Shown here: positions 14,008 to 64,000 of the stretch, in pieces
Layout of the letters: every line of letters starts with the position of its first letter
How positions within the stretch are numbered: position 1 is the first letter of the stretch
Source of the DNA: Gemmatimonadales bacterium
GTDB lineage: Bacteria; Gemmatimonadota; Gemmatimonadetes; Gemmatimonadales; GWC2-71-9
Assembly (NCBI GenBank): GCA_036558125.1
Contig: DATBGE010000108.1
Location: 30,813 to 94,812, forward strand
DNA: 64,000 nucleotides
Reading direction: 5' to 3'
Made by a program: the position numbers and the translations under genes
The notes under the pieces: model-generated
Told to the model about the DNA's origin: nothing
Seen by the model: only the letters and a program-made list of their open reading frames with translations
Database searches by the model: none

Positions 14008-14055
14008 CGGGAGAACGGGAGAACGGGTGAACGGGTGAACGGGAGAACGGGTGAG
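14008..14055 (+). repeat. tandem octamer array, 6 x CGGG[A/T]GAA
   Basis: Read directly from sequence. Starts 3 nt after the TAG stop at 14002..14004. Gives six GGG tracts spaced by 5 nt. Confidence 0.95.
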
Positions 14056-38141: not shown

Positions 38142-38995
38142 GCCGTGCTTTCGGTGGCGCTGCGCTGGCCCACGCCGGGATGTACCGGATTAGAGCCGCC
38201 CGACTCGCGAGCCCAGCGGAAGAAGATCACCCCGAAGGCAAACCAGAGTGGAAGGTCGCCGATGATCTTCATGGTGAGTCCCGCGATTTGCTGATCGGAA
38301 TGGGCGGGGAGGTCCATCGCGCGGGGTGCCAGTTCGTACACGCCGTAGAGCGGGTAATCGGCGAAGGTGAGGAAAGCCGCCGGGAGAATCGGCGGCAGGG
38401 TGGCTGCGAAGAGATATCCCATCTTCAAAGGGCGGGTAAGGCGGCCGATCGGCGGGGGCGCCATGATTGCCCACCAGAGCACGATTCCACCGAGGAACCA
38501 TGCCAGGTCGATGGCGAAGGCGCCGAGCTGCGAACCCATCAGTCCGTCTACCACATCCGGAATGTGAGTGCCGATCAGGATCGCGTTGAAAACCGCGAGA
38601 GCGATGAGTGGTCGGGCCAGAATCCGTAAGACCGGCCCCACGCGCGGCGACCGGGAGCCGCTGAGCATGGCCTCACTCGGAATGCCGGCCAGGAGCAGAG
38701 GCGGGGCGATGAGGCTCAGGAGGATGTAGCTGACGGTGTGGAAGCTGACCAGGTAGCCGGTCCCCAACGGACCAATTGGCCAGTCGAGTGCGAGCCAGAC
38801 GGTGAGGAGGCCGGCCGCAAAGAAATAGGCGGCTCGGCGGCTCGGCGGCTCGGCGGCTCGGCTTCGCAGGTCGGGGCCTCGGCGGATAACCAGGAAATAC
38901 AGAACGGCAAGAAGCGCGACGAACAGCCACACGCCGGGATAGGCCTTCCAGGCCCAGGTCCATGGCTGCCCGGTTGCCGAGCACCACCAGGTCAT
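38138..38995 (-). CDS. ctaG: cytochrome c oxidase assembly protein (caa3 CtaG family)
   Basis: Polytopic membrane protein with the FHTVSYILLSLIAPPLLLAGIP and VLWWAIMAPPP patterns typical of this family. Confidence 0.7.
   Translation of the reverse strand: MTWWCSATGQPWTWAWKAYPGVWLFVALLAVLYFLVIRRGPDLRSRAAEPPSRRAAYFFAAGLLTVWLALDWPIGPLGTGYLVSFHTVSYILLSLIAPPLLLAGIPSEAMLSGSRSPRVGPVLRILARPLIALAVFNAILIGTHIPDVVDGLMGSQLGAFAIDLAWFLGGIVLWWAIMAPPPIGRLTRPLKMGYLFAATLPPILPAAFLTFADYPLYGVYELAPRAMDLPAHSDQQIAGLTMKIIGDLPLWFAFGVIFFRWARESGGSNPVHPGVGQRSATESTA
38828..38862. repeat. tandem octamer GGCGGCTC x4 (plus a partial unit) inside the ctaG-like CDS
   Basis: Read directly from sequence. Encodes SRAAEPPSRRAA in the first loop of the protein. 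Confidence 0.9.
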
Positions 38996-48978: not shown

Positions 48979-50102
48979 CAGGCGCCTCCTCCTGTGAAGC
49001 CCGCGGCGAGACTGGAGATCCAGGTATTCATGAGATCGAAGTAGGTCTCGACACCCGGGGCCCCATGGGTGTTCTCCGGAACGATCACTGCCTTCGCGCC
49101 GGTCTTGGCTGCCACCTCTCCGATTTGGTTGCGATTGAAATAGTTGGACGCAAAGAGCACCGGAATCTTCCGCTCCTTCATCAGCGCGATCACTTCTTCC
49201 ACGTGCTTCGGCGTCGGTGGGATCCCCGGCTTCGCTTCGATGAAGGTGGCGCAGACCACCTTGAACCGGTTGCTGAAATAGGCCCATTCCTTGTGGTAGC
49301 ATGCCATTTCCCGTCCGCGGAAGACCTCACCCTGCTTGAGCCACCCTCCCAGATGATCGGAGAGCGGCTTGCCTTGGTATTTCGTGCGACCGATGAAGTC
49401 GAACAGCTTGTCGGTCTTGAGCAGGTCGAACGCGGTCGCGGGAGTGAGAATGCCGACCAGCTCCTGCCCCATGGTGGCCTCGAGAATCCGCTTCTCGAAG
49501 TCCTTTTCGCGATCCGTGAAGTAACTGGCATCTCCCGGGGAGACCCGGGTCAGACCGGTCATGATATTCCGCGCGATGATGATCGCGTTCAGTGGATCGG
49601 TGTGAATGTGGGGATTGCCGTCGGCGTGAATATCTCCCTGCGCCCGATTCAGACTGGTGGGGACCTCCAGCAGCGTGATGCCGGTATAGGCGGTGACGTA
49701 CCCGGGCCCGCCCTCGGACACCTTCCGGTTGTTGGCTCGGTCGAGCAGCGCCGGGACCCAAAGCTCCAAATCGAGTCCGGTCGTCACGAACAGATCCGCG
49801 TCGCGCAGGACCGCCACGAAGCTCGGCTTGGGCTGCACGAAGTGAGGATCCTCGTCGCCCTGGGCGATCGAAGTTATCGTGCCGCGATCGCCAGCAATCT
49901 CCCGCGCGATCGCCCCATAGGTCGTCAGGCTGGTGACGATCTTGAGCGGTGCGGTCCTTAAGGACTCCCTCGCTCCCGACTCGCGCTGTCGCGCTCCTGA
50001 GGGTCGCTCGGTCGCGACTCGGCGGCTCGGCGGCTCGGCGGCATGATGACTGGGCGGCTCGGCGAACAGCCCGGAAGCGATGGTGAGGAGAGCGAGAATC
50101 AT
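48978..50102 (-). CDS. metal ABC transporter substrate-binding protein (ZnuA/TroA cluster-9 family)
   Basis: LKIVTSLTTYGAIAREI...DPHFVQPKPS...DIHADGNPHIHTDP His-rich metal-site pattern. Confidence 0.85.
   Translation of the reverse strand: MILALLTIASGLFAEPPSHHAAEPPSRRVATERPSGARQRESGARESLRTAPLKIVTSLTTYGAIAREIAGDRGTITSIAQGDEDPHFVQPKPSFVAVLRDADLFVTTGLDLELWVPALLDRANNRKVSEGGPGYVTAYTGITLLEVPTSLNRAQGDIHADGNPHIHTDPLNAIIIARNIMTGLTRVSPGDASYFTDREKDFEKRILEATMGQELVGILTPATAFDLLKTDKLFDFIGRTKYQGKPLSDHLGGWLKQGEVFRGREMACYHKEWAYFSNRFKVVCATFIEAKPGIPPTPKHVEEVIALMKERKIPVLFASNYFNRNQIGEVAAKTGAKAVIVPENTHGAPGVETYFDLMNTWISSLAAGFTGGGA
50021..50064. repeat. octamer GGCGGCTC copies (2.5 tandem plus 1.5 more after a 12-nt gap) inside the SBP CDS
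   Basis: Read directly from sequence. Encodes AEPPSHHAAEPPSRR just after the signal peptide. Same unit as in ctaG. Confidence 0.9.
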
Positions 50103-52549: not shown

Positions 52550-52552
52550 AAA

Positions 52553-52622
52553 TGGCGGGATGGCGGGATGGCGGGATGGCGGAATGGCGGAATGGCGGAA
52601 TGACGAGAGACGAGAGACGAGG
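52553..52622 (+). repeat. compound tandem array: 3 x TGGCGGGA, 3 x TGGCGGAA, 3 x GACGAG[AG]
   Basis: Read directly from sequence. Starts 4 nt after the mazF TAA stop. Confidence 0.95.
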
Positions 52623-55636: not shown

Positions 55637-56662
55637 ATGCTGCGCCTCCCGGCCTTCGCGCCCAGCTTCCCGACTTCGGTGGACGACGCGGTACGCATCA
55701 AGACCGCTCACGGCCTGGATGCGTCTTATGTCGCCGGAGGTACGGACCTCTATCCCAATATGAAGCGGCTGCAACAGACACCGCGTCATGTCATCGACAT
55801 TCGTCGCGTGCCGGAGCTGAGTCTGCTGGATCGGGGGACTGAAGGGCAGTTGAGAATTGGATCGGCGGTGACGCTGACTCGGCTGATTCACCATCCGTTG
55901 GTACGGCAGGAGTGGTCAGTCCTGTCTCGTGCGGCAGCCACGATCTCGACACCCATCCTGCAGAACATGGGAACCGTCGGCGGCAATCTGCTGCTCGACA
56001 CCCGCTGCAATTACTACGACCAGACCTATGAGTGGCGGCGGGCGATCGACTTCTGCATGAAGAAGGACGGGAAGATCTGCTGGGTGGCTCCTTCGAGTCC
56101 GCGTTGCTGGGCGGTGCAGTCGAGCGATCTCGCGCCGGTGATGGTGGCACTCGGCGCCAGTGTAGTGCTGATGGGACCCAAGGGAAGCCGTACCATCCCG
56201 GCTGCTTCGCTCTACCGGAACGACGGCATCGAATATCTCACCAAGCAGCCCGACGAGCTGTTAGTTCGAATTGAGGTGCCCGCGCTCCGGACCTCTCGCG
56301 CGGATTACCAAAAGCTGCGGCGCCGCGGGGCCTTCGATTTTCCGGTGCTGGGAGTGGCCGCGTGGGCAGATCTCGACCCGCAGGGCGTGGTTCGTGCGGC
56401 GCGGGTCGTGGTTGGTGCGGTAGGGTCCTGGCCCATGGAGAGCGAGGACGCGGCGAAGGTGCTTGTCGGGCAGCCGCTCGCCGACGAATCCATCACTGCG
56501 GCCGCAACTGCGGCGGCCCGGAGAGCCAAGCCGCTCGACAATACCGACTTCACAATCGGCTGGCGCAAGGACATGGTGCCGGTCTACGTGCGAAGGGCGC
56601 TGGTCAGTCTCCTGCGACCCTCGTCCCCGTCCGGTGCAGCGGGCCTTCCACCGGCAGGATGA
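55637..56662 (+). CDS. FAD-binding medium subunit with a four-Cys insertion (4-hydroxybenzoyl-CoA reductase beta-like)
   Basis: AGGTDLYPNMK FAD motif and GTVGGNL, followed by the inserted C-x15-C-x7-C-x8-C loop. ATG at 55637. Confidence 0.85.
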   Translation: MLRLPAFAPSFPTSVDDAVRIKTAHGLDASYVAGGTDLYPNMKRLQQTPRHVIDIRRVPELSLLDRGTEGQLRIGSAVTLTRLIHHPLVRQEWSVLSRAAATISTPILQNMGTVGGNLLLDTRCNYYDQTYEWRRAIDFCMKKDGKICWVAPSSPRCWAVQSSDLAPVMVALGASVVLMGPKGSRTIPAASLYRNDGIEYLTKQPDELLVRIEVPALRTSRADYQKLRRRGAFDFPVLGVAAWADLDPQGVVRAARVVVGAVGSWPMESEDAAKVLVGQPLADESITAAATAAARRAKPLDNTDFTIGWRKDMVPVYVRRALVSLLRPSSPSGAAGLPPAG

Positions 56663-58178
56663 ACCACATGGTAGTCCCCCGCCCGTAAACCGACTCGGCG
56701 CCGATCGTGCCGCCGTGCATCTCGACAAATTTCTTCGACAGCGCCAATCCCAGTCCCGTGCCTTGCTGAGACCGGCTGTGTGACGTATCCACCTGACTGA
56801 ATTCGTGGAACAGTTTCGGCATGTCCTCGGGCTTGATCCCCGTTCCGGTATCGCTCACTGACACCCACACCGCCTCCCGGGATACCAGGCGGGGTTTCTC
56901 GTCGTACTCGGTGGAGATGGGGAGAGGGGCGCGGGTTGAGACGGCGGAGATGCTGACGCTGCCCCGCTCCGGAGTGAACTTGGATGCGTTGGAAAGGAGG
57001 TTGAAGAGGATCTGTCTGACCCTCGTGCCATCGGCGATGATAGTGGCAGGTGCGGAACCGGCTTCCACCCGGACTTCCTGTTCCTTGCTGGTGCGGAGCG
57101 GCGCGGTGTCCGTCACCACTCCCTGGATGGCCGCGTGCAGATCGGTCGGTGCCAGGTTCAGCGTCATCCGGCCGGCTTCGATCTTGGAAAGATCCAACAC
57201 CGAGTTGATCAGGCCGAGCAGATGCTTCCCGTTGCGGAGAATGGAGGCGAGGAATTCCCGCTGCAGCTCGTTGACCGACCCCATCTCCTCGGTCAGCATC
57301 AGATCGGAGAAACCGTTGATAGCGTTGAGCGGGGTGCGGAGCTCGTGAGACATGTTCGCGAGGAACTGGCTCTTCAGGTCGGTTGATCGCTGCAGCTCCC
57401 GGTTCTTGTCCTCCAAAGCCTTCTGGTTGCGGCGGGTCTCGTCCAGCATCTGGGCGCGATCCACCCCGACGACGACTTGATCTCCCAGTGTCTTCAGAAG
57501 TTCCAGGTCGTTCTCGCCGAAAGGACGGCCGTCGCGGCGGTTGTGAACGCTCACGGTCCCGATCGCGAGCCCGCTGGATCGCAACGGGACGATCGCCGCC
57601 GTCTTCATCCGGGAGGTCAACCCCTCGACGTTGTAACTCCTCGGATCGGCCTGCATATCCTCGCTCAGAAGCGGCTCATCATGGGTCACGACCCAGCCGG
57701 TCAATGAATGGTCCACCGGAATCAGAATGCCGGTGGCCCCCTCCAGGAACCCGTCGGTCGCCACTGCCTTGAGAAAGCGCCCCTCCTCGACGACGAGCGT
57801 GATCACGCTGCCTTCGGCTTCCAGGAGCTGGGTGGTCGCCTTGGCGATTTCGCGGAACAGGTAGTTGACGTCGCTCGCGCCGAGCAGGGTGGCGGCGAGG
57901 TGGCGCAGGCCCTCGAGCTCGCGATTGCGCGCGGCCGCGCGGTCCAGCGCGAGCTGCAGGCGACGGCGCTGCTCCAGGGCAATCCGTCGCCCGCGTCTCA
58001 GCGCTATGAGCGCCAGGACACTTGCCACGAGGCAGAGAAGAAAGCCGGTCCACTGCTGACGGTAGATGAAGTAGACCCCGACCCATCCTATGATCACGGC
58101 TGCGGCGGTGATCGGTCGGGTGCTGTAGAGGCGCTGCCAGAGGGACTTGGGGGAAGTCGGCCCCCCAGGGAGGGTCAT
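56604..58178 (-). CDS. GAF domain-containing sensor histidine kinase
   Basis: Two N-terminal TM helices, a GAF-like region, H-box SHELRTPLNAI, and N/G boxes (LLSNASKFT, DTGTGI, GTGLGL). Confidence 0.85.
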   Translation of the reverse strand: MTLPGGPTSPKSLWQRLYSTRPITAAAVIIGWVGVYFIYRQQWTGFLLCLVASVLALIALRRGRRIALEQRRRLQLALDRAAARNRELEGLRHLAATLLGASDVNYLFREIAKATTQLLEAEGSVITLVVEEGRFLKAVATDGFLEGATGILIPVDHSLTGWVVTHDEPLLSEDMQADPRSYNVEGLTSRMKTAAIVPLRSSGLAIGTVSVHNRRDGRPFGENDLELLKTLGDQVVVGVDRAQMLDETRRNQKALEDKNRELQRSTDLKSQFLANMSHELRTPLNAINGFSDLMLTEEMGSVNELQREFLASILRNGKHLLGLINSVLDLSKIEAGRMTLNLAPTDLHAAIQGVVTDTAPLRTSKEQEVRVEAGSAPATIIADGTRVRQILFNLLSNASKFTPERGSVSISAVSTRAPLPISTEYDEKPRLVSREAVWVSVSDTGTGIKPEDMPKLFHEFSQVDTSHSRSQQGTGLGLALSKKFVEMHGGTIGAESVYGRGTTMWFILPVEGPLHRTGTRVAGD

Positions 58179-58182
58179 GCGT

Positions 58183-58386
58183 TCACTCCGTCAGCAGCTC
58201 GGTGAACCGAGTCTCGCCGGTGATGAGCATCCTTTTCAAGTAAGGCCGGCAGAGTCCGCAACCGTCACCACACCCCGTCTCCCGCATGACATCGTCCAGA
58301 GTCCAACCGTGCTCTCTCGCCAGGGGAAGCAGCCGGGCGAAAGGCATTTGGCGGCAGATGCAGGTGGTGATGAGGATGTGGGACAT
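58183..58386 (-). CDS. BFD-like [2Fe-2S]-binding domain protein
   Basis: 67 aa from the ATG at 58386. CxC...CGxGCGxC pattern (TTCICRQ...ETGCGDGCGLC). The upstream part of the 58515 ORF is the heptamer array. Confidence 0.7.
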   Translation of the reverse strand: MSHILITTCICRQMPFARLLPLAREHGWTLDDVMRETGCGDGCGLCRPYLKRMLITGETRFTELLTE

Positions 58387-58390
58387 GGTC

Positions 58391-58509
58391 GAGAGTCTGG
58401 AGTCTGGAGTCGGAAGTCTGGAGTCTAGAGTCTGGAGTCTAAGGTCATGAATCGCTGATGACTCCAGACTCTCGACTCCAGACTTCCGCCTCTCGAATCC
58501 AGACTTCCT
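58391..58509. repeat. inverted heptamer arrays: 8 x [TG]GGAGTC-like, 14-nt spacer, 7 x GACTCC[AG]-like
   Basis: Read directly from sequence. The reverse complement of the right arm matches the left arm at 26 of 27 positions over GGAAGTCTGGAGTC[T/G]AGAGTCTGGAGT. Confidence 0.95.
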
Positions 58510-58514
58510 CCCCA

Positions 58515-59216
58515 CTACGGATTCGTCGGCCTGATATCCAGCTCCGACACCAAGGCCCGTTCCGGGAGAGCCAGGGCCGCGAGCACCGTCTCAGCCACGT
58601 CCTCAGGCTGCAGGATGCGGTCGATGTTGGGTGAGAGCATCCCCTGGGTTCGAATCAGCGGGGTATCGACCGAACCGGGACAGATGGTGATGACACGAAC
58701 GTTGTCCTTTCGGACCTCCAGCATCAGCGATTTCGCAAAGCCGAGTACCGCGTGCTTGGAGGCGCTGTAGGCGGACCCACCGACAAATCCGTTGCGGCCG
58801 GCCAGGCTCGCAATATTGACGATGGCACCCTGCTTTCGAGTGCGCATGGCGGGCAGCACCTCACGGGTCACCAGGTACAGGCTCCGCAGGTTGGTCGCCA
58901 TCGTCGTATCCCAGTCGTCCAGCGTCAGCTCTTCGAACCGCTTGAGGGGAGCGACGCCGGCATTGTTCACCAGGACATCGATGGCTCCGAGTTCCTTGAC
59001 CAGCATTGAGACGGCGGTCTTCACGTCGGCTTCGACGCCGACGTCAGCCGGGTGAACAGCGGCGGTGACACCCGCCTCTTCCAGTCCATCCTTGAGAGCG
59101 CGGAGCCGTGAAGGGGTTCTGGCGCAGGCTCCGATCTTGTAGCCTGCCTTCCCGAGGCGGAAACAAATCGCGCGACCAATTCCTTCGGTGGCGCCGGTGA
59201 TGAGTGCGGTGGGCAT
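58515..59216 (-). CDS. SDR family oxidoreductase
   Basis: TGATEGIG cofactor motif, NNAG, YSASK catalytic tetrad. Confidence 0.9.
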   Translation of the reverse strand: MPTALITGATEGIGRAICFRLGKAGYKIGACARTPSRLRALKDGLEEAGVTAAVHPADVGVEADVKTAVSMLVKELGAIDVLVNNAGVAPLKRFEELTLDDWDTTMATNLRSLYLVTREVLPAMRTRKQGAIVNIASLAGRNGFVGGSAYSASKHAVLGFAKSLMLEVRKDNVRVITICPGSVDTPLIRTQGMLSPNIDRILQPEDVAETVLAALALPERALVSELDIRPTNP

Positions 59217-59233
59217 GGTGAAATCTAGTAATA

Positions 59234-59309
59234 GTACCGCGTACCGCGTACCGCGTACCGAGTAAAGGCCGTTGGCTGTTCACCCAACTCGGTACTCGGT
59301 ACTAGGTAC
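59234..59309. repeat. inverted heptamer arrays: 4 x GTACCG[CA], 27-nt spacer, 3 x T[CA]GGTAC
   Basis: Read directly from sequence. Fills most of the 102-bp divergent region between the SDR and ABC exporter starts. Confidence 0.95.
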
Positions 59310-59318
59310 TTTTCATAC

Positions 59319-61217
59319 ATGACGTTCCCCGGTGGTCCCGCCAGTCTCCGGCCCCGCCGCCCGCCCAAGCTCATCCAGGAAGCACCGACTTGGCGGGAAC
59401 GGATGCGGGCTACTCGCCACCTGCCTGAATTTTTCCGGCTGGTCTGGGAGACCAATCGCGGTTACAGCGTTCTCATCGTGCTGCTCCGCGCACTCCGGGC
59501 GGCGATTCCGATCGCCACTCTCTGGATCGGGAAGCTCATCATCGATGAAGTAGTGCGGCTATTGGGCGAGCCGGGAGCCGCGGCGTCAGGCCTCGAGGCC
59601 TACAGGCATCTGCTGCTGCTCGTGGCCGTCGAGTTCGGCATCGCAACCGTGGGCGAACTCCTGGCGCGGGCATCCTCCCTGCTGGAGAGCCTGCTGGGCG
59701 ACCTGTTCGCCAATCGCACCAGCGTTCAATTGATGCAGCACGCGGCGTCCCTCGATCTCCAGCAGCTGGAAGATGCCGAGGTCTACGACAAGCTGGAGCG
59801 GGCTCGGCGGCAGACGGTGGGACGGATCGGGCTCTTCACGGGAATTCTCGCCAGCCTGCAGGATTTGATCACGATGGTCTCGCTGGCGATTGCGATCACG
59901 GTCTACGTTCCCTGGTTGCTGTTGCTCCTTGCCTTGGCGGTCCTCCCCTCCTTTCTGGGCGAAACACGCTACGCCGCACTCGGCTACTCGCTGCTGTTCT
60001 CCTGGACTCAGGAGCGGCGCCAGCTCGATTACCTGCGGTACATCGGTGCGAGCGATGTCTCCGCCAAAGAAGTGAAACTGTTCGGCCTCTCCGATTACCT
60101 GGTGGGACAGTATGCCCAGCTCTCGGACGAGTTCTACGAAGCCAACCGCGATCTCGCGATTCGACGCGCGGTGGTTTCCTCCCTGCTCGCTCTGGTCGGG
60201 TCGGTCGGGTACTACGGCGCCTATGTCGCCATCATCTATCTCACAGTAACCCGCCATCAGTCGCCCGCCGGTCCCTTTACCCTGGGCGTCCTGACTTTCC
60301 TGGCCGCCTCCTTCCGGCAAAGCCGAGACCTGATCCAGCGCTTTCTGTTGTCCCTGGCCCAGCTGTTCGAGCAGGCGCTCTACCTCGAGGATCTGTTCAC
60401 CTTCTTCGATCTGCAGCCGCGGATCTCCAGCACGCCCGGTGCGGCGGTGGTGCCGACGCCCATTCGGGAGGGTTTTCAGTTCGAGAATGTCGGGTTCCGC
60501 TACCCTGGCGCTGAACGGTGGGCGGTCCGGGGGCTCGACTTCGTGCTCAAGCCGGGCGAGCGGCTGGCCTTGGTGGGAGAGAACGGTGCGGGCAAGACCA
60601 CGCTCGCCAAACTCCTCGCTCGACTCTACGACCCCAGCGAAGGACGCATCCTGCTAGATGGTCGAGATCTGCGGGAATACGACATCGAGAGCCTGCGCCG
60701 CAATGTCGGCGTGATTTTCCAGGATTTTGTGCGCTACGACTTTCCCATCAGGGAGAATATCGCTGTGGGCGACATCGGCCGGCGGGACGACCAACCGGCG
60801 CTCGAGGTGGCGGCGAGCCGAAGTCTGGCCGACAGCGTGATCGCCCGCTTCAAGGAAGGCTATGAGCAATTACTGGGGAAGCGGTTTGAGGGTGGGGCCG
60901 ATCTCTCGGGGGGCGAATGGCAGAAACTGGCTCTGGCCCGGGCCTACCTGCGAGATGCCCAGCTCCTGATTCTCGACGAGCCCACCGCCGCCCTCGATGC
61001 GCGCGCCGAGTACCAGGTCTTCCTCCGCTTTTCCGAGCTGACCCACGGGCGCATGGCGGTGCTGATCAGCCACCGTTTCAGCACGGTTCGCATGGCCGAC
61101 CGTATTCTGGTGCTCAAGGAGGGTGAGCTGGTGGAGCAGGGGACCCACGCGGAGCTGCTGGACAACAAGGGACTTTACTCGGAGTTGTTCGGGCTGCAGG
61201 CGGCGGGGTATAGGTAG
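59319..61217 (+). CDS. ABC transporter ATP-binding protein/permease (fused exporter, MsbA-like)
   Basis: Six-TM N-terminal domain. GENGAGKTT, LSGGEWQK, LLILDEPTAALD. Confidence 0.9.
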   Translation: MTFPGGPASLRPRRPPKLIQEAPTWRERMRATRHLPEFFRLVWETNRGYSVLIVLLRALRAAIPIATLWIGKLIIDEVVRLLGEPGAAASGLEAYRHLLLLVAVEFGIATVGELLARASSLLESLLGDLFANRTSVQLMQHAASLDLQQLEDAEVYDKLERARRQTVGRIGLFTGILASLQDLITMVSLAIAITVYVPWLLLLLALAVLPSFLGETRYAALGYSLLFSWTQERRQLDYLRYIGASDVSAKEVKLFGLSDYLVGQYAQLSDEFYEANRDLAIRRAVVSSLLALVGSVGYYGAYVAIIYLTVTRHQSPAGPFTLGVLTFLAASFRQSRDLIQRFLLSLAQLFEQALYLEDLFTFFDLQPRISSTPGAAVVPTPIREGFQFENVGFRYPGAERWAVRGLDFVLKPGERLALVGENGAGKTTLAKLLARLYDPSEGRILLDGRDLREYDIESLRRNVGVIFQDFVRYDFPIRENIAVGDIGRRDDQPALEVAASRSLADSVIARFKEGYEQLLGKRFEGGADLSGGEWQKLALARAYLRDAQLLILDEPTAALDARAEYQVFLRFSELTHGRMAVLISHRFSTVRMADRILVLKEGELVEQGTHAELLDNKGLYSELFGLQAAGYR

Positions 61218-61297
61218 CGGGAGACGGGAGACGGGAGACGGGAGGACGGGGGAACGGGGGAACGGGGAACGGGGAACAGGGAACAGGGAACAGGGAA
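61218..61297 (+). repeat. drifting tandem 7-8-mer array: CGGGAGA x3, CGGGAGGA, CGGGGGAA x2, CGGGGAA x2, CAGGGAA x3
   Basis: Read directly from sequence. Begins at the nucleotide after the TAG stop (61215..61217). Confidence 0.95.
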
Positions 61298-61314
61298 ATT
61301 TGCAGGTCGTGACG

Positions 61315-61692
61315 TCAGCCTTCATCGAGCGTACTACGAAGTGATCGCTTAGAGCCACCGGCCCGCATCGTTAGAAAGGCCACTCGGTAAGCCAGTTTCC
61401 TGATGACAATTGCCTCATCCGGACGAAGCCAGCCCTGAGCCTCGCCGAGGATGGCGAGCCGGTGTAACGACCCGAAACGATCCCATGCGCCCTCCCGTCC
61501 ACTCCGACGACGAAGGCGCATCAGAGTAGCTCTCAGGGCGCCCTCGGGCAGGCGGGACACTGCGTCCTCCAAGGCACGGTCCAGGGCATCCAGATAAGCA
61601 GGGAGGATTCTCTCGGCGACGAAGTGCATGGTGGCCAGCATAGGAGGAAGCTGGGAATGGCGTACCACCATTTCTTGACGGGCTGGTATCAA
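61315..61692 (-). CDS. hypothetical protein (helical, Arg/Leu/Ala-rich)
   Basis: 125-aa ORF bracketed by two repeat arrays. No motif recognised. Confidence 0.4.
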   Translation of the reverse strand: MIPARQEMVVRHSQLPPMLATMHFVAERILPAYLDALDRALEDAVSRLPEGALRATLMRLRRRSGREGAWDRFGSLHRLAILGEAQGWLRPDEAIVIRKLAYRVAFLTMRAGGSKRSLRSTLDEG

Positions 61693-61704
61693 TTCGACGC
61701 GAGG

Positions 61705-61808
61705 GGGTCTAGGGTCTAAGGTCGTGAGTCACAAGCCGGTGAAGGACGGGACTCGGCCCGAGACTCAAGACCTTCGACCCGAGACCTTCGACCTCAGACC
61801 TTAGACCC
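61705..61808. repeat. inverted heptamer arrays: 4 x [GA]GGTC-type units, 27-nt spacer, 7 x nnGACC[TC] units
   Basis: Read directly from sequence. GGGTCTAAGGTC in the left arm is the exact reverse complement of the right-arm end. Ends 3 nt before a TTGACA hexamer. Confidence 0.9.
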
Positions 61809-61873
61809 TATTTGACAACTCCCCGCCGCGTCCGCAGTATCCCCTTTCCACAAGCAGAAGGAGGCCCAGACCT

Positions 61874-63925
61874 ATGAAGGTCTATGGCTCGAACGCCATC
61901 CGAAACGTGGCCTTCGTGGGCCACGGGGCGAGCGGCAAGACCACCCTGGTTGATGCGCTCGCCTTCGTCTCCGGCTCCAGCCGGCGCCACGGTTCGGTCA
62001 AAGACGGTACCACGCTCACCGACTACACCCCCGACGAAATCGAACGCAAGCACTCCATCGGCCTCAGCGTTGCCTATGCCGAGTGGATGGATGTGAAGCT
62101 GAACCTCATCGATACTCCCGGATACCTGGACTTCTTCGGCGAGGCGGTCACCGGATTACACACGGCGGATTCGGCCGTCGTGGTTATCAGCGCGACCGGT
62201 GGCGTCGAAGTCGGAACCGAGAAGGTCTGGGAAGTGTGCGACCGGCTGCACCTGCCCCGGATCATCTTCGTGTCCCAGATGGACAAGGAGCACGCCAATT
62301 TCGAGCGGGTCTTCCAGGACATCAAAGAGCACCTCTCCCCCAAGGTCGTCCCGGTCGAGATCCCGCTGGGCGAAGGTCCGCAGTTCCGCGGGGTGGTCAA
62401 CCTCTTTTCGGGGAAGACCCACATCTACAAGAAGGGCACCAAGACCGGCGAGTACGACGAATCACCGCTTCCCGATGAATACAAGGAGCAATTCTCCCGC
62501 TACGACCAGCAGCTGACCGAGGCTGTCGCCTCCAGCGACGATAACCTGCTGGAGCGGTATCTGGGCGGAGAGGAAATCCCGAGGGAAGAAGTGCTCGGTG
62601 CCATGAAGCAGGCGATGCTTCGGGGTGAAATCGTCCCGCTCTTCTGCGGAAGCGCGGAGTTGACCTATGGTACCCGCGCGCTGCTCAACAAGATGGTGGA
62701 GCTGCTGCCGTCGCCCAACGAGATTCCGGCGCCGGCCGAGGCGCCGCTGATCGGACATGTCTTCAAGACTATCTCCGAACCGCACGTCGGTGATGTCTCC
62801 CTCTTCCGGATCTATACCGGCACCATCAAGAACGGCGACGAGGTCTGGAACGCCGAGCACAGTGTGGCTGAGAAGCTCAATCACCTGTCAGTGCAACAGG
62901 GCAAGGAACGGTTCGAGGTTCCCGAGTTGGCCGCGGGAGACATCGGATCGGTGGCCAAGCTCCGCGACACTCACACCAACGACACGTTCTGCCGCCGGGA
63001 GTCTGCGTTACAGTTGCCTCCAATCCCGTTCCCCGAGGCACTGGCGACCTCCGCCGTCGTCGTGAAGATGCGGGGCGAAGAGGACAAGCTCGCCGCGGGA
63101 CTCCACAAGCTCCACGAGGAGGATCCGACCTTCCACTTCGAGTACAGCTCGGAGCTGGGGCAGACCCTGGTTCACGGGATGGGCGAACGTCATTTCGAGA
63201 TTCTACTGGGCCGGCTGCAACGGAAGTTTGGGGTTCACGCCGAGCTGGCTCGTCCCCGGGTGGCGTATCGCGAGACGCTGAAGGGGAAGGGCGAAGGTCA
63301 GGGCAAGCACAAGAAACAGAGCGGTGGGCGGGGACAATACGGTGACTGCTGGGTGCGGTTCTCCCCGCTTCCCCGGGGCTCCGGCTACAAGTTCATCGAC
63401 AGCATCGTGGGTGGGGTCATTCCCAACCGCTACATCCCGGCGGTGGATCGTGGAATCCAGGAGTCGGCGGTACGCGGCGTTGTGGCCGGCTATCCGATGG
63501 TGGATTTCCAGGCCGAGTGCTTCGACGGCTCGTACCACGACGTCGATTCCAACGAAATGTCGTTCAAGATGGCGGGGATCCTCGCCTTCAGGAACGTCGC
63601 CCCCAAGTGCCGGCCGGTGCTGCTGGAACCACTGATGGAGGTAACGGTCTGGACCCCCGGAGAAATCCTGGGTGATGTGATGGGTGATCTCAGCTCACGG
63701 CGCGGTCAGATCCTGGGGACCGACACCGAGGGGCGGCTCACCCGGATCAAGGCGATCGTGCCCGAAGCGGAGCTTTACAAATACGCCACGACTCTGCACT
63801 CGATTACCCACGGTCGTGGCACCTTCCATTTCGACCACCACGGATACGCCGAGGCTCCGCCCGAAATCTCGGCCAAGGTGGCGGCGGAGAACAAGAGGGA
63901 TGGGAAGGAGAATGGGGACGAGTGA
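61874..63925 (+). CDS. elongation factor G paralog (EF-G II-like) with degenerate G motifs
   Basis: Five-domain EF-G length and sequence. GAAGGAGG RBS 10 nt upstream. G1 GHGASGKTT, G3 DTPGYLDF, G4 position SQMD. Confidence 0.9.
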   Translation: MKVYGSNAIRNVAFVGHGASGKTTLVDALAFVSGSSRRHGSVKDGTTLTDYTPDEIERKHSIGLSVAYAEWMDVKLNLIDTPGYLDFFGEAVTGLHTADSAVVVISATGGVEVGTEKVWEVCDRLHLPRIIFVSQMDKEHANFERVFQDIKEHLSPKVVPVEIPLGEGPQFRGVVNLFSGKTHIYKKGTKTGEYDESPLPDEYKEQFSRYDQQLTEAVASSDDNLLERYLGGEEIPREEVLGAMKQAMLRGEIVPLFCGSAELTYGTRALLNKMVELLPSPNEIPAPAEAPLIGHVFKTISEPHVGDVSLFRIYTGTIKNGDEVWNAEHSVAEKLNHLSVQQGKERFEVPELAAGDIGSVAKLRDTHTNDTFCRRESALQLPPIPFPEALATSAVVVKMRGEEDKLAAGLHKLHEEDPTFHFEYSSELGQTLVHGMGERHFEILLGRLQRKFGVHAELARPRVAYRETLKGKGEGQGKHKKQSGGRGQYGDCWVRFSPLPRGSGYKFIDSIVGGVIPNRYIPAVDRGIQESAVRGVVAGYPMVDFQAECFDGSYHDVDSNEMSFKMAGILAFRNVAPKCRPVLLEPLMEVTVWTPGEILGDVMGDLSSRRGQILGTDTEGRLTRIKAIVPEAELYKYATTLHSITHGRGTFHFDHHGYAEAPPEISAKVAAENKRDGKENGDE

Positions 63926-63926
63926 A

Positions 63927-64000
63927 ACGGGAGACAGGAGACGGGAGACGGGAGATGGGAGACGGGAGACGGTGAACGGTGAACGGTGAACGGTGAACGG
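63927..64000 (+). repeat. tandem heptamer array: ACGGGAG-type x6, then ACGGTGA x4+, running off the window
   Basis: Read directly from sequence. Starts 1 nt after the TGA stop (63923..63925). Confidence 0.95.

What the first reader, a model, noticed from the sequence alone, without database searches (positions are those of the whole stretch)
58391..58509. 119-nt hairpin built from inverted heptamer arrays between the SDR and BFD-like genes
Eight [TG]GGAGTC-type heptamers, a 14-nt spacer and seven GACTCC[AG]-type heptamers are present. Over GGAAGTCTGGAGTCnAGAGTCTGGAGT the two arms are complementary at 26 of 27 positions. The structure could form a very long RNA hairpin or a DNA cruciform between two co-directional genes, and it creates a spurious N-terminal extension of the BFD-like ORF. 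The unit sequence is unrelated to the G-rich arrays, but the architecture (heptad periodicity in inverted blocks) recurs at 59234 and 61705.
Basis: seen in the sequence. Interest (0 to 1): 0.6.

Follow-up and report, generated by a model that had tools for sequence, protein, structure and literature searches.

The report
Heptamer-repeat hairpin between two genes
The 119-base hairpin is real, but it is one of about 170 fast-evolving hairpins built from 7-base repeats that fill the gaps after genes in this soil bacterium (order Gemmatimonadales); the same design encloses a family of small "intervening-sequence" genes, and its function is still unproven.

Summary
Window 58391-58508 holds eight NNGAGTC-type heptamers, a 13-nt spacer and seven GACTCNN-type heptamers. 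The arms are 46 nt long and 89% complementary. The RNA fold is -83 kcal/mol (z = -8).

The element fills the spacer between the SDR stop codon and the BFD-like start codon, on the minus strand. It is not a one-off. The genome has 793 period-7 arrays with more than 100 unit types, and 171 of them form inverted hairpins. Arrays start a median of 3 nt after stop codons and are depleted in divergent spacers.

All four congeners carry a hairpin at the same site, with different units (GAGTC-type or GATGGTC-type) and different copy numbers (up to 27.7). Other genera have a spacer of about 30 nt and no repeat.

I found no U-tract, no strand bias and no G:U-over-A:C bias, so this is not an intrinsic terminator and shows no RNA-specific signature.

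The same architecture encloses 10 of the genome's 12 PF05635 (23S-rRNA-IVS-protein, Avd-like) genes. One of them uses the same GAGTCTG unit. At one orthologous site a cassette and an ORF-less hairpin alternate between species. RNase III, which excises such stems elsewhere, is absent from the whole class.

My best reading is an ORF-less, IVS-like hairpin made by slippage that is largely neutral. No RNA data were available.

The parts
58460..58508 (-). 5' arm in the mRNA sense (minus strand): seven heptamers (plus strand GACTCCA GACTCTC GACTCCA GACTTCC GCCTCTC GAATCCA GACTTCC). It begins 6 nt after the SDR stop codon.
58447..58459 (-). 13-nt spacer or loop (ATGAATCGCTGAT on the plus strand). With the degenerate innermost unit the unpaired or weakly paired centre is about 20 nt.
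58391..58446 (-). 3' arm in the mRNA sense: eight heptamers (plus strand GAGAGTC TGGAGTC TGGAGTC GGAAGTC TGGAGTC TAGAGTC TGGAGTC TAAGGTC). It ends 4 nt before the BFD-like ATG. In the fold, the A and U of that AUG pair with the U and G next to or within the SDR stop codon.
58515..59216 (-). Upstream gene: short-chain dehydrogenase/reductase. Its stop codon TAG is at 58517-58515.
   Evidence: adh_short 1.1e-61
58183..58386 (-). Downstream gene: 67-aa BFD-like [2Fe-2S] domain protein. Its true start is ATG 58386. The ORF extension to 58515 is read-through of the repeat.
56604..58178 (-). GAF histidine kinase, starting 4 nt after the BFD-like stop. SDR, BFD and HK look like one operon.
59234..59310 (.). 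Second hairpin of the class: GTACCGC x4.4 / ACTCGGT x3.4, in the divergent SDR/ABC-exporter spacer. Congeners hold AGTACCG-type or AGGAGTA-type hairpins here.
61705..61808 (.). Third hairpin of the class: GGGTCTA x2.7 / AGACCTT x5.7, upstream of the EF-G paralogue. The site is occupied in congeners by GGTC-type units.
61218..61297 (+). Direct (solo) G-rich heptamer/octamer array (CGGGAGA to GGGGAAC) starting at the first base after the ABC-exporter stop codon.
63927..64000 (+). Direct array ACGGGAG x6.6 then ACGGTGA x4.6, starting 2 nt after the EF-G paralogue stop. It runs off the window.

Best explanation
The element is an ORF-less member of a lineage-specific class of heptamer-array hairpins.

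Shown: it is built from two inverted tandem arrays of a 7-nt unit. About 170 such hairpins and about 270 solo arrays, with more than 100 different units, sit in this genome. They lie almost always in spacers directly after stop codons. The same architecture forms the arms around the genome's PF05635 (23S-rRNA-IVS-protein, Avd-like) genes.

Inferred: the arrays grow and shrink by replication slippage. The two arms are kept complementary by a DNA-level process, most likely intrastrand template switching of the kind that corrects quasipalindromes. The element persists because a self-complementary insert placed between a stop codon and the next start codon folds out of the transcript and leaves the stop and start juxtaposed, so it does little harm.

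On this reading it is a structurally silent, selfish or neutral insertion in the SDR-BFD-HK operon. It is not a dedicated terminator or processing signal. As a side effect, the -83 kcal/mol stem probably hinders 3'-to-5' exonucleases and independent initiation at the BFD-like AUG.
For: Class membership:
- 982 TRF rows have period 7, against 170 with period 6 and 378 with period 8.
- After merging there are 793 non-redundant arrays, 77% fully intergenic, in 509 clusters of which 171 are inverted.
- 158 of 251 adjacent array pairs have units within 1 mismatch of each other's reverse complement, against 3.8% of random pairs.

Placement:
- In co-directional spacers the arrays lie a median of 3 nt from the upstream stop and 29 nt from the next start.
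- They occupy 106 of 392 convergent, 288 of 2698 tandem and 38 of 388 divergent spacers.

Slippage and turnover at this very site:
- G002 and G003 have shorter GAGTC-type hairpins.
- G001 and G004 have GATGGTC/GACCATC hairpins, and in G004 one arm has 27.7 copies against 3.6 in the other.
- All five genomes fold strongly (z -4.5 to -10.4).
- Three other genera have a spacer of about 30 nt with no repeat.
- The four other array sites in the last 6 kb of the window are also occupied in every congener, often with different units.

DNA-level, strand-symmetric character:
- Stem mismatches on the sense strand are G:T 66 against A:C 81 (p = 0.25).
- Solo arrays are G-rich on the sense strand 63 times and C-rich 66 times.
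- There is no T-tract excess after the stems.
- Copies sharing the GAGTCTG unit have unrelated loops and flanks.
- MutS and MutL are intact.

Link to IVS-type cassettes:
- 10 of 12 PF05635 genes in this genome are enclosed by complementary 7/8-mer arrays. One is C126, with GAGTCTG x5.4 / GACTCCA x3.7.
- All 11 assessable loci in 10 relatives are also enclosed.
- At the C126 site, G002, G003, G004 and G011 carry the gene, while G001 has an ORF-less hairpin in a 123-nt gap.
- Protein similarity tracks arm-unit similarity (Mantel p = 0.002).

Fold-out geometry: in the minimum-free-energy fold, the last base of the SDR stop codon and the A and U of the BFD AUG pair at the foot of the stem.
Against: Persistent occupation of the same five spacers in all congeners, and the sharp fall in arm divergence beyond one mismatch, could equally reflect selection for a stem. 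That would mean a function.

Template switching as the homogenising mechanism is inferred from established knowledge of quasipalindromes and was not tested here. A test for mirrored unit order in the two arms was negative for the class, so the arms are not simple inverted copies of one another.

Nothing explains why the period is 7, or why free arrays proliferate only in this genus. Relatives with 5-8 cassettes have almost none.

My gene calls come from a home-made codon-usage finder that misses short genes, so the distances to stops and starts are approximate.
Confidence: 0.55

Rival explanations
1. The hairpin is a selected RNA element of the operon. It would act as a 3'-exonuclease barrier that stabilises the upstream SDR segment, and/or as a stem that sequesters the BFD-like start codon and so sets the SDR:BFD expression ratio. 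This is the role REP/BIME stem-loops play in E. coli operons.
For: The element starts 6 nt after the stop and ends 4 nt before the AUG, which is partly paired. A hairpin is kept at this site in all five congeners although the sequence changed on both arms. The class lies next to stop codons, is enriched in convergent spacers and depleted in divergent spacers. Arms rarely diverge beyond one mismatch per unit.
Against: G:U pairs are not preferred over A:C on the sense strand (66 against 81). Solo arrays show no orientation bias (63 against 66). Arm lengths are wildly unequal in G004 (27.7 against 3.6 copies). The hairpin at 59234 sits in a divergent promoter spacer, where a 3'-end role is impossible. 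Genera without the element manage with a 30-nt spacer.
Confidence: 0.25
2. The hairpin is a DNA-level site: a hairpin or cruciform, or a repeat array recognised by a protein. An obvious candidate is the Avd-like PF05635 pentamers encoded inside sister hairpins. Such a site could organise DNA, prime copying, or mobilise cassettes by recombination between arrays of the same unit.
For: All statistics are strand-symmetric. The ssDNA fold is strong (-46 kcal/mol, z -8.7). PF05635 genes are nearly always enclosed by such arrays. Paralogue similarity tracks unit similarity. One cassette in this genome has the same GAGTCTG unit as this element. PF05635 resembles the DGR accessory protein Avd (PMC10053308).
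Against: There are more than 100 unit types against 12 PF05635 genes. Units drift between congeners at fixed sites. Relatives with 5-8 PF05635 genes have almost no free arrays. Long spacers disfavour cruciform extrusion (established knowledge). There is no binding evidence of any kind.
Confidence: 0.12
3. The hairpin is an RNase III processing site that splits the polycistronic mRNA, in the way the stems of 23S rRNA intervening sequences are cut.
For: A 46-bp near-perfect stem is an ideal RNase III substrate. The Coxiella IVS stem contains tandem GACAGAT heptamers and is cut by RNase III in vitro (PMC4990558).
Against: No RNase III gene was found. TIGR02191, PF14622 and PF00636 find nothing in this genome or in 30 relatives. 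tblastn with E. coli Rnc and a signature-motif scan find nothing. In a draw across the phylum, 0 of 46 genomes of the same class have the gene, against 14 of 15 in other classes.
Confidence: 0.03
4. The hairpin is a Rho-independent (intrinsic) terminator of the SDR gene.
For: It is a stable stem directly after a stop codon.
Against: No U-tract follows the stem: the 3' flank is CGACCAUGUCCCAC. The consensus scan finds none. The class shows no T-enrichment after stems on the sense side. The downstream BFD-like and HK genes have no evident promoter of their own.
Confidence: 0.03

Closest known systems
Inverted GGGAATC heptamer repeat pairs of Xanthomonas campestris/citri (Rehm et al. 2015, PMC4692102)
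   Same: Both are tandem 7-nt arrays, and many occur as convergent pairs able to form stem-loops (70 of 186 in Xcc). About 90% are intergenic, lie closer to the upstream ORF, and are under-represented between divergent genes. They sit at the same sites in related species, with extensive length and sequence variation. The function is unknown.
   Different: Xanthomonas uses one G-rich unit family that can form G-quadruplexes. This genome uses more than 100 units, and the GAGTCTG unit here cannot form a G4. The link to PF05635 genes is not made in that paper.
ORF-bearing intervening sequences of 23S rRNA (Coxiella burnetii IVS with S23p; also Leptospira), PMC4990558
   Same: Both have a long stem formed by terminal inverted repeats that contain tandem heptamers of variable copy number. 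The PF05635/S23p gene family sits in the loop. In this genome 10 of 12 such genes have the same design, one with the same unit.
   Different: This element lies between protein-coding genes, not in 23S rRNA. It carries no ORF. The organism's class lacks RNase III, the enzyme that excises IVSs.
REP/BIME/REPIN elements of enterobacteria and pseudomonads (established knowledge)
   Same: Both comprise hundreds of imperfect palindromes in spacers at gene 3' ends, between co-directional or convergent genes and inside operons. Both can act as mRNA 3' stabilisers.
   Different: REPs have a conserved sequence and are spread by RAYT transposases. Here the loops and flanks are unrelated, the units are many, and the stems are internally periodic and length-variable.
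STRR heptanucleotide repeats of heterocystous cyanobacteria, TAACTGA repeats of Beggiatoaceae (PMC4679880) and heptanucleotide elements of Geobacter metallireducens (PMC2700814)
   Same: All are abundant intergenic 7-nt tandem arrays with a patchy phylogenetic distribution and an unproven function.
   Different: Those are mostly direct arrays of one or a few units, often upstream of start codons. Here the arrays lie next to stop codons, are frequently inverted, and have many units.
Quasipalindrome template-switch correction (established knowledge from E. coli mutagenesis studies)
   Same: It gives a mechanism by which imperfect inverted repeats are converted towards perfect complementarity without selection. 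This fits the co-variation of the two arms between species.
   Different: It is known as a point-mutation mechanism in short quasipalindromes. Its action on tandem-array arms is my inference.

Membership tests
Heptameric SSR arrays / inverted heptamer pairs (Rehm et al. 2015 type) | Head-to-tail repeats with a 7-nt unit | tested here: met
   TRF reports period 7, 6.9 and 6.6 copies; units read by eye
Heptameric SSR arrays / inverted heptamer pairs (Rehm et al. 2015 type) | Two arrays of complementary units in convergent orientation close together | tested here: met
   46-nt arms, 89% complementary, 20 nt apart; 171 such clusters in the genome
Heptameric SSR arrays / inverted heptamer pairs (Rehm et al. 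2015 type) | Intergenic, nearer the upstream ORF, under-represented between divergent genes | tested here: met
   77% intergenic; median 3 nt to the stop against 29 nt to the start; occupies 38 of 388 divergent against 106 of 392 convergent spacers
Heptameric SSR arrays / inverted heptamer pairs (Rehm et al. 2015 type) | Same site in close relatives, with length and sequence variation | tested here: met
   Five congeners compared at five sites
Heptameric SSR arrays / inverted heptamer pairs (Rehm et al. 2015 type) | G-rich unit able to form a G-quadruplex | tested here: not met
   The GAGTCTG unit has no G-tracts. Other arrays in the window (61218, 63927) are G-rich.
23S rRNA intervening sequence (IVS) | Inserted in helix 25 or 45 of the 23S rRNA gene | tested here: not met
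   Lies between the SDR and BFD-like protein genes; no rRNA match in Rfam over 56000-64000
23S rRNA intervening sequence (IVS) | Terminal inverted repeats forming a long stem that contains tandem heptamers | tested here: met
   the Coxiella stem has GACAGAT x2-3
23S rRNA intervening sequence (IVS) | Carries an S23p/PF05635 ORF in the loop | tested here: not met
   The loop is 13-20 nt. Sister elements do carry one: 10 of 12 PF05635 genes in the genome are enclosed by arrays.
23S rRNA intervening sequence (IVS) | Excised by RNase III | tested here: not met
   No RNase III gene in this genome or in 46 genomes of its class; present in 14 of 15 genomes of other classes of the phylum. Cleavage itself could not be assayed.
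Intrinsic (Rho-independent) terminator | Short GC-rich stem followed by a U-tract | tested here: not met
   No site in 57900-59500; no T-excess after stems in the class
REP/REPIN | Conserved palindromic sequence family shared by all copies | tested here: not met
   Copies with the same unit share only the arrays; loops and flanks are unrelated; more than 100 unit types
REP/REPIN | Associated RAYT (IS200/IS605-like) transposase in the genome | not tested
   Not searched
Any curated RNA family (Rfam 15) | Match at or above the family's gathering score | tested here: not met
   Only generic miRNA-precursor hairpin matches, far below threshold

The most novel reading that the evidence does not exclude
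Heptamer-array hairpins such as this one would be the ORF-less, non-autonomous form of a cross-phylum class of IVS-type cassettes. In these cassettes, self-renewing inverted heptamer arrays act as the terminal repeats of a small Avd-like (PF05635) gene.

On this reading the arms duplicate together with the gene, and empty hairpins and cassettes replace each other at the same sites. The classical 23S rRNA intervening sequences, the Xanthomonas heptamer pairs and the cyanobacterial STRRs would all be facets of one system.

The system thrives here in a bacterial class that has lost RNase III. Excision by that enzyme is therefore not what makes the inserts tolerable. What makes them tolerable would be their fold-out geometry, possibly aided by the encoded pentameric protein.
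Probability: 0.3. Interest if true: 0.75.

Novelty: new member of a known kind. Interest (0 to 1): 0.42.

Why it matters
Taken alone, the hairpin is an ordinary member of a repeat class that has been known, but unexplained, since the STRR and Xanthomonas work. Three results from this genome make the class easier to study.

1. Site occupancy is conserved across a genus while the unit, the copy number and both arms turn over together. This gives a natural series for asking whether structure or mechanism keeps the arms complementary.
2. The same arms enclose nearly every PF05635 (Avd-like, "23S rRNA IVS protein") gene. At one site a cassette and an empty hairpin are alternative states. This ties an orphan protein family to an orphan repeat class.
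3. The whole class of bacteria lacks RNase III. That removes the textbook explanation for how such stems are handled and makes these organisms a clean test bed.

For annotation, such arrays create false ORF extensions (as with the BFD-like gene here) and break short-read assemblies.

Tried and rejected
1. Rfam search with permissive thresholds found only sub-threshold miRNA-like hairpin noise.
2. Consensus scans found no promoter or terminator.
3. G:U against A:C asymmetry on the sense strand, as a signature of RNA-level selection, showed none.
4. Solo arrays show no strand bias relative to transcription, and there is no U-tract after stems.
5. Loss of mismatch repair as a cause is rejected: MutS and MutL are intact.
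6. A mobile element with a conserved core is rejected: loops and flanks of copies with the same unit are unrelated.
7. A unit vocabulary shared across phyla is not supported. The GAGTCTG 19-mer occurs in more than 119 loci from Acidobacteriota, Planctomycetota, Cyanobacteria and others, and those loci are rich in period-7 arrays. But only 47 of 270 of their other arrays use a unit that is also found here, so the shared unit looks convergent.
8. Mirrored higher-order unit order between the arms (an inverted-duplication signature) is not general. The test had low power. This element gave z about 2.5, p about 0.06.
9. RNase III processing is rejected because the enzyme is absent from the class.
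10. PF05635 copy number as a predictor of free-array density gave only a weak result: Spearman 0.52, p = 0.04, uncorrected for phylogeny. Genomes with 5-8 copies have almost no free arrays.
11. The orphan ORF 61315-61692 as a divergent PF05635 protein has no support.
12. Other genes enclosed by inverted arrays 150-1500 nt apart are miscellaneous small ORFs with no second cargo family.

Full report
THE OBSERVATION

The sequence at window 58391-58508 reads as eight heptamers (GAGAGTC, TGGAGTC x2, GGAAGTC, TGGAGTC, TAGAGTC, TGGAGTC, TAAGGTC), then a 13-nt spacer, then seven inverted heptamers (GACTCCA, GACTCTC, GACTCCA, GACTTCC, GCCTCTC, GAATCCA, GACTTCC). The spacer is 13 nt rather than 14, and the last base of the stated range (58509) lies outside the array.

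- TRF finds period 7 with 6.9 and 6.6 copies.
- The repeat finder gives 46-nt arms that are 89% complementary, plus several alternative registers shifted by multiples of 7.
- As RNA the region folds to -83.1 kcal/mol on the minus strand and -85.6 on the plus strand. The z-scores are about -8, and none of 200 shuffles is as stable.
- As single-stranded DNA it folds to -46.3 kcal/mol, z = -8.7.
- No curated RNA family matches.

CONTEXT

The genes lie on the minus strand. An SDR (58515-59216, adh_short 1e-61) is followed by a 67-aa BFD-like [2Fe-2S] protein (58183-58386, just at Pfam's cut-off) and, 4 nt later, by a GAF histidine kinase.

In the mRNA sense the hairpin begins 6 nt after the SDR stop and ends 4 nt before the BFD-like ATG. 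In the predicted fold the last base of the UAG stop and the A and U of the AUG pair at the foot of the stem.

The 110-aa ORF that runs through the repeat is an artefact. Heptamer arrays cycle through all three frames, and this unit has no stop codon in any of them.

The taxon is a Gemmatimonadales bacterium. A named MAG of that order is 83.9% identical over 6.3 kb to a contig of this genome.

A GENOME-WIDE CLASS

The whole genome is 3.98 Mb in 231 contigs with 64% G+C. It gives 982 TRF rows at period 7, against 170 at period 6 and 378 at period 8, with about 120 canonical unit types.

After merging, there are 793 arrays of at least three copies in 509 clusters: 171 inverted pairs, 266 solo arrays and 72 other multiples. 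Of 251 adjacent array pairs, 158 have units within one mismatch of each other's reverse complement, against 3.8% for random pairs. The count falls sharply at two mismatches.

I called genes with a simple codon-usage finder (3709 genes; it misses some short genes). With those calls:

- 77% of arrays are fully intergenic.
- In co-directional spacers the element lies a median of 3 nt from the upstream stop and 29 nt from the next start.
- Arrays occupy 27% of convergent spacers, 11% of tandem spacers and 10% of divergent spacers, although divergent spacers hold far more DNA.

The window element fits this pattern exactly.

EVOLUTION AT THIS SITE

Four congeners (81-84% identical in the flanking genes) all carry a hairpin in the same spacer.

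- G002 and G003 have shorter GAGTC-type arms.
- G001 and G004 have GATGGTC/GACCATC arms, and G004 has 27.7 copies on one arm and 3.6 on the other.
- All five genomes fold strongly (z -4.5 to -10.4).
- The units are one or two substitutions apart (AGTCGAT against GGTCGAT). Both arms changed together, and G001 still shows mixed units.
- In G001 and G004 the BFD start codon is a TTG supplied by a variant repeat unit.
- Three other genera of the family have the two genes about 30 nt apart with no repeat.

The other four array sites in the last 6 kb of the window are also occupied in every congener, frequently by different units.

Sampling 40-100 kb from each of 18 relatives shows that free arrays are dense only in this genus (10-37 per 100 kb). 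They are moderate in G011 and G020 (9-10 per 100 kb) and between 0 and about 6 per 100 kb in the other relatives sampled. That is only partly right, because the distribution is patchy.

TESTS OF HOW IT WORKS

Terminator. No U-tract follows the stem, and the consensus scan finds nothing. Across 117 hairpins in co-directional spacers, T-richness after the stem is the same on the sense and antisense sides.

Selected RNA stem. Mismatches should then be biased to G:U on the sense strand. They are not: G:T 66 against A:C 81, p = 0.25. Solo arrays are G-rich on the sense strand 63 times and C-rich 66 times.

Mismatch-repair loss. MutS and MutL are intact.

Mobile element with a conserved core. Fifteen loci with GAGTC-type arrays share only the arrays, not the loops or flanks. 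Single arrays grade from one unit into another.

So everything measurable is strand-symmetric, as expected for a DNA-level process, while placement is governed by what genes tolerate.

THE LINK TO INTERVENING-SEQUENCE CASSETTES

Notes from earlier agents on other genomes claimed that PF05635 genes sit inside inverted heptamer arrays. PF05635 is the "23S rRNA intervening sequence protein", a four-helix bundle resembling the DGR protein Avd (PMC10053308). I tested the claim here.

- The genome has 12 such genes, and 10 are enclosed by complementary 7- or 8-mer arrays. One of them, contig C126, has GAGTCTG x5.4 on one side and GACTCCA x3.7 on the other. That is the unit of the window element.
- All 11 assessable loci in ten relatives from three families are enclosed in the same way.
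- At the C126 site, G002, G003, G004 and G011 (a different genus) carry the gene. G001 has instead a 123-nt gap filled by an ORF-less hairpin: AGTAAGG x3, an 18-nt loop, then CCTCACT/CCTTACT x9. Cassette and empty hairpin are therefore alternative states of one site, and parsimony favours loss of the ORF in G001.
- Across 20 cassettes, protein similarity tracks arm-unit similarity (Mantel p = 0.002). Two paralogues that are 73% identical have the identical unit AACGGGG, and two that are 60% identical have units one base apart. So the arms duplicate with the gene.
- The paralogues are old, with a median identity of 36%.
- PF05635 copy number predicts free-array density only weakly (Spearman 0.52, p = 0.04, not corrected for phylogeny). 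Genomes with 5-8 cassettes can have almost no free arrays.

In Coxiella the 23S rRNA IVS has a 28-bp stem that contains GACAGAT heptamers of variable number, and RNase III cuts it (PMC4990558). I found no paper that connects PF05635 with heptamer arrays outside rRNA.

RNASE III IS ABSENT

Given the IVS analogy, I expected the stem to be an RNase III site. The evidence is against it.

- Three models (TIGR02191, PF14622, PF00636) find no RNase III in this genome or in 30 relatives.
- In a phylum-wide draw, 0 of 46 genomes of the same class have the gene, including closed genomes that are 100% complete. In contrast 14 of 15 genomes of other classes have it, at E = 1e-62 to 1e-67.

The loss is therefore real and class-wide, and RNase III cleavage cannot be the mechanism here.

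BEST EXPLANATION

The element is an ORF-less, IVS-like heptamer-array hairpin.

Shown: it belongs to the class. It lies next to a stop codon. It persists at this site across the genus while the unit and copy number turn over. Its statistics are strand-symmetric. It shares its architecture, and in one case its unit, with PF05635 cassettes.

Inferred: the arrays expand and contract by slippage. The arms are homogenised by intrastrand template switching. The element is tolerated because a self-complementary insert folds out and leaves the stop and start codons adjacent. Side effects on mRNA decay and on BFD initiation are likely but incidental.

I give this reading 0.55. The main rival is a selected RNA stabiliser or translational attenuator, at 0.25. 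It is kept alive by the conserved occupancy of the sites and by the tight limit on arm divergence.

KNOWN OR NEW

Inverted heptamer pairs with the same placement rules and the same between-species variability were described in Xanthomonas, with function unresolved (PMC4692102). Related arrays are known in cyanobacteria, Beggiatoaceae and Geobacter. This element is therefore a new member of a known kind.

What goes beyond the literature I could search is the tie to PF05635 cassettes (first raised by earlier agents in this scan and confirmed here) and the class-wide absence of RNase III.

LIMITS

Gene calls are approximate. Array densities in relatives rest on samples of 12-100 kb. The correlation and Mantel tests are not corrected for phylogeny.

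Noticed in passing
whole genome G000 and relatives (no window coordinates): RNase III (rnc) appears to be lost from the entire class holding this genome. It is found in 0 of 46 genomes of the class, including closed ones, against 14 of 15 genomes of other classes of the same phylum. Three HMMs, tblastn and a motif scan agree. I found no paper on this.
   Followed up: yes
G000 contigs C126:481-1036, C133:266-897, C55:3258-3779, C203:19348-19908, C31:27598-28044, C25:23180-23756, C60:5845-6375, C13:21662-22193, C36:495-1027, C143:1744-2131: Ten of the genome's twelve PF05635 (23S rRNA IVS protein, Avd-like) genes are each enclosed by a pair of complementary 7- or 8-mer arrays. Each cassette has its own unit, and each fills the spacer between two ordinary genes.
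   Followed up: yes
L171 2002-2125 (G001:C264) versus L162 481-1036 (G000:C126): At the same orthologous spacer, four genomes hold a PF05635 cassette with GAGTC-type arms, while G001 holds an ORF-less hairpin with AGTAAGG/CCTTACT arms and an 18-nt loop.
   Followed up: yes
L131 439-707 (G004:C1, orthologue of window 58391-58508): One arm has expanded to 27.7 copies of GATGGTC while the other has 3.6. The BFD-like start codon there (and in G001) is a TTG created by a variant repeat unit (CCATTGACC).
   Followed up: partly
window 61315-61692 (minus strand): A 125-aa orphan helical ORF lies between a G-rich direct array and an inverted array. It has no Pfam match even at E = 10 and no real similarity to a PF05635 protein of this genome (BLASTP E = 0.06).
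   Followed up: partly
G000 contigs C7:1865-1935, C104:2115-2170, C7:20790-20850: Single arrays grade through several units (GACCTTA to GACCATC to GACTCTC to GACTCCA). This shows stepwise mutation followed by local spreading within one array.
   Followed up: no
L146, L147, L201-L203 and L164 (G020, another family of the order): This genome's free arrays use essentially one unit family (GGGATAG/CCCTAGC). The arms of its PF05635 cassette (TAGGGGC/CCCCTAG) are of that same family. This resembles the single-unit situation in Xanthomonas.
   Followed up: partly
L011-L129 (genome-contig hits): The 19-mer GAGTCTGGAGTCTGGAGTC occurs in more than 119 loci from Pyrinomonadaceae and other Acidobacteriota, Planctomycetota, Cyanobacteria, Chitinophagaceae, Dehalococcoidia and others, often as plus/minus pairs within 100 nt. 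Those loci are rich in period-7 arrays (501 of 1079 TRF rows) but use mostly different units.
   Followed up: partly
G000 contig ends (e.g. C159:52-124, C20:85-131, C28:1-23, C220:93-131): Many contigs begin or end in heptamer arrays, so these repeats probably cause much of the fragmentation of this 231-contig assembly.
   Followed up: no
window 38828-38885, 50014-50065, 52551-52602, 14008-14054: Period-8 arrays (GGCGGCTC, GCGGCTCG, AATGGCGG, CGGGAGAA) also occur. One PF05635 cassette (C25) is enclosed by GGCGGCTC-type octamers, so the class is not strictly heptameric.
   Followed up: no
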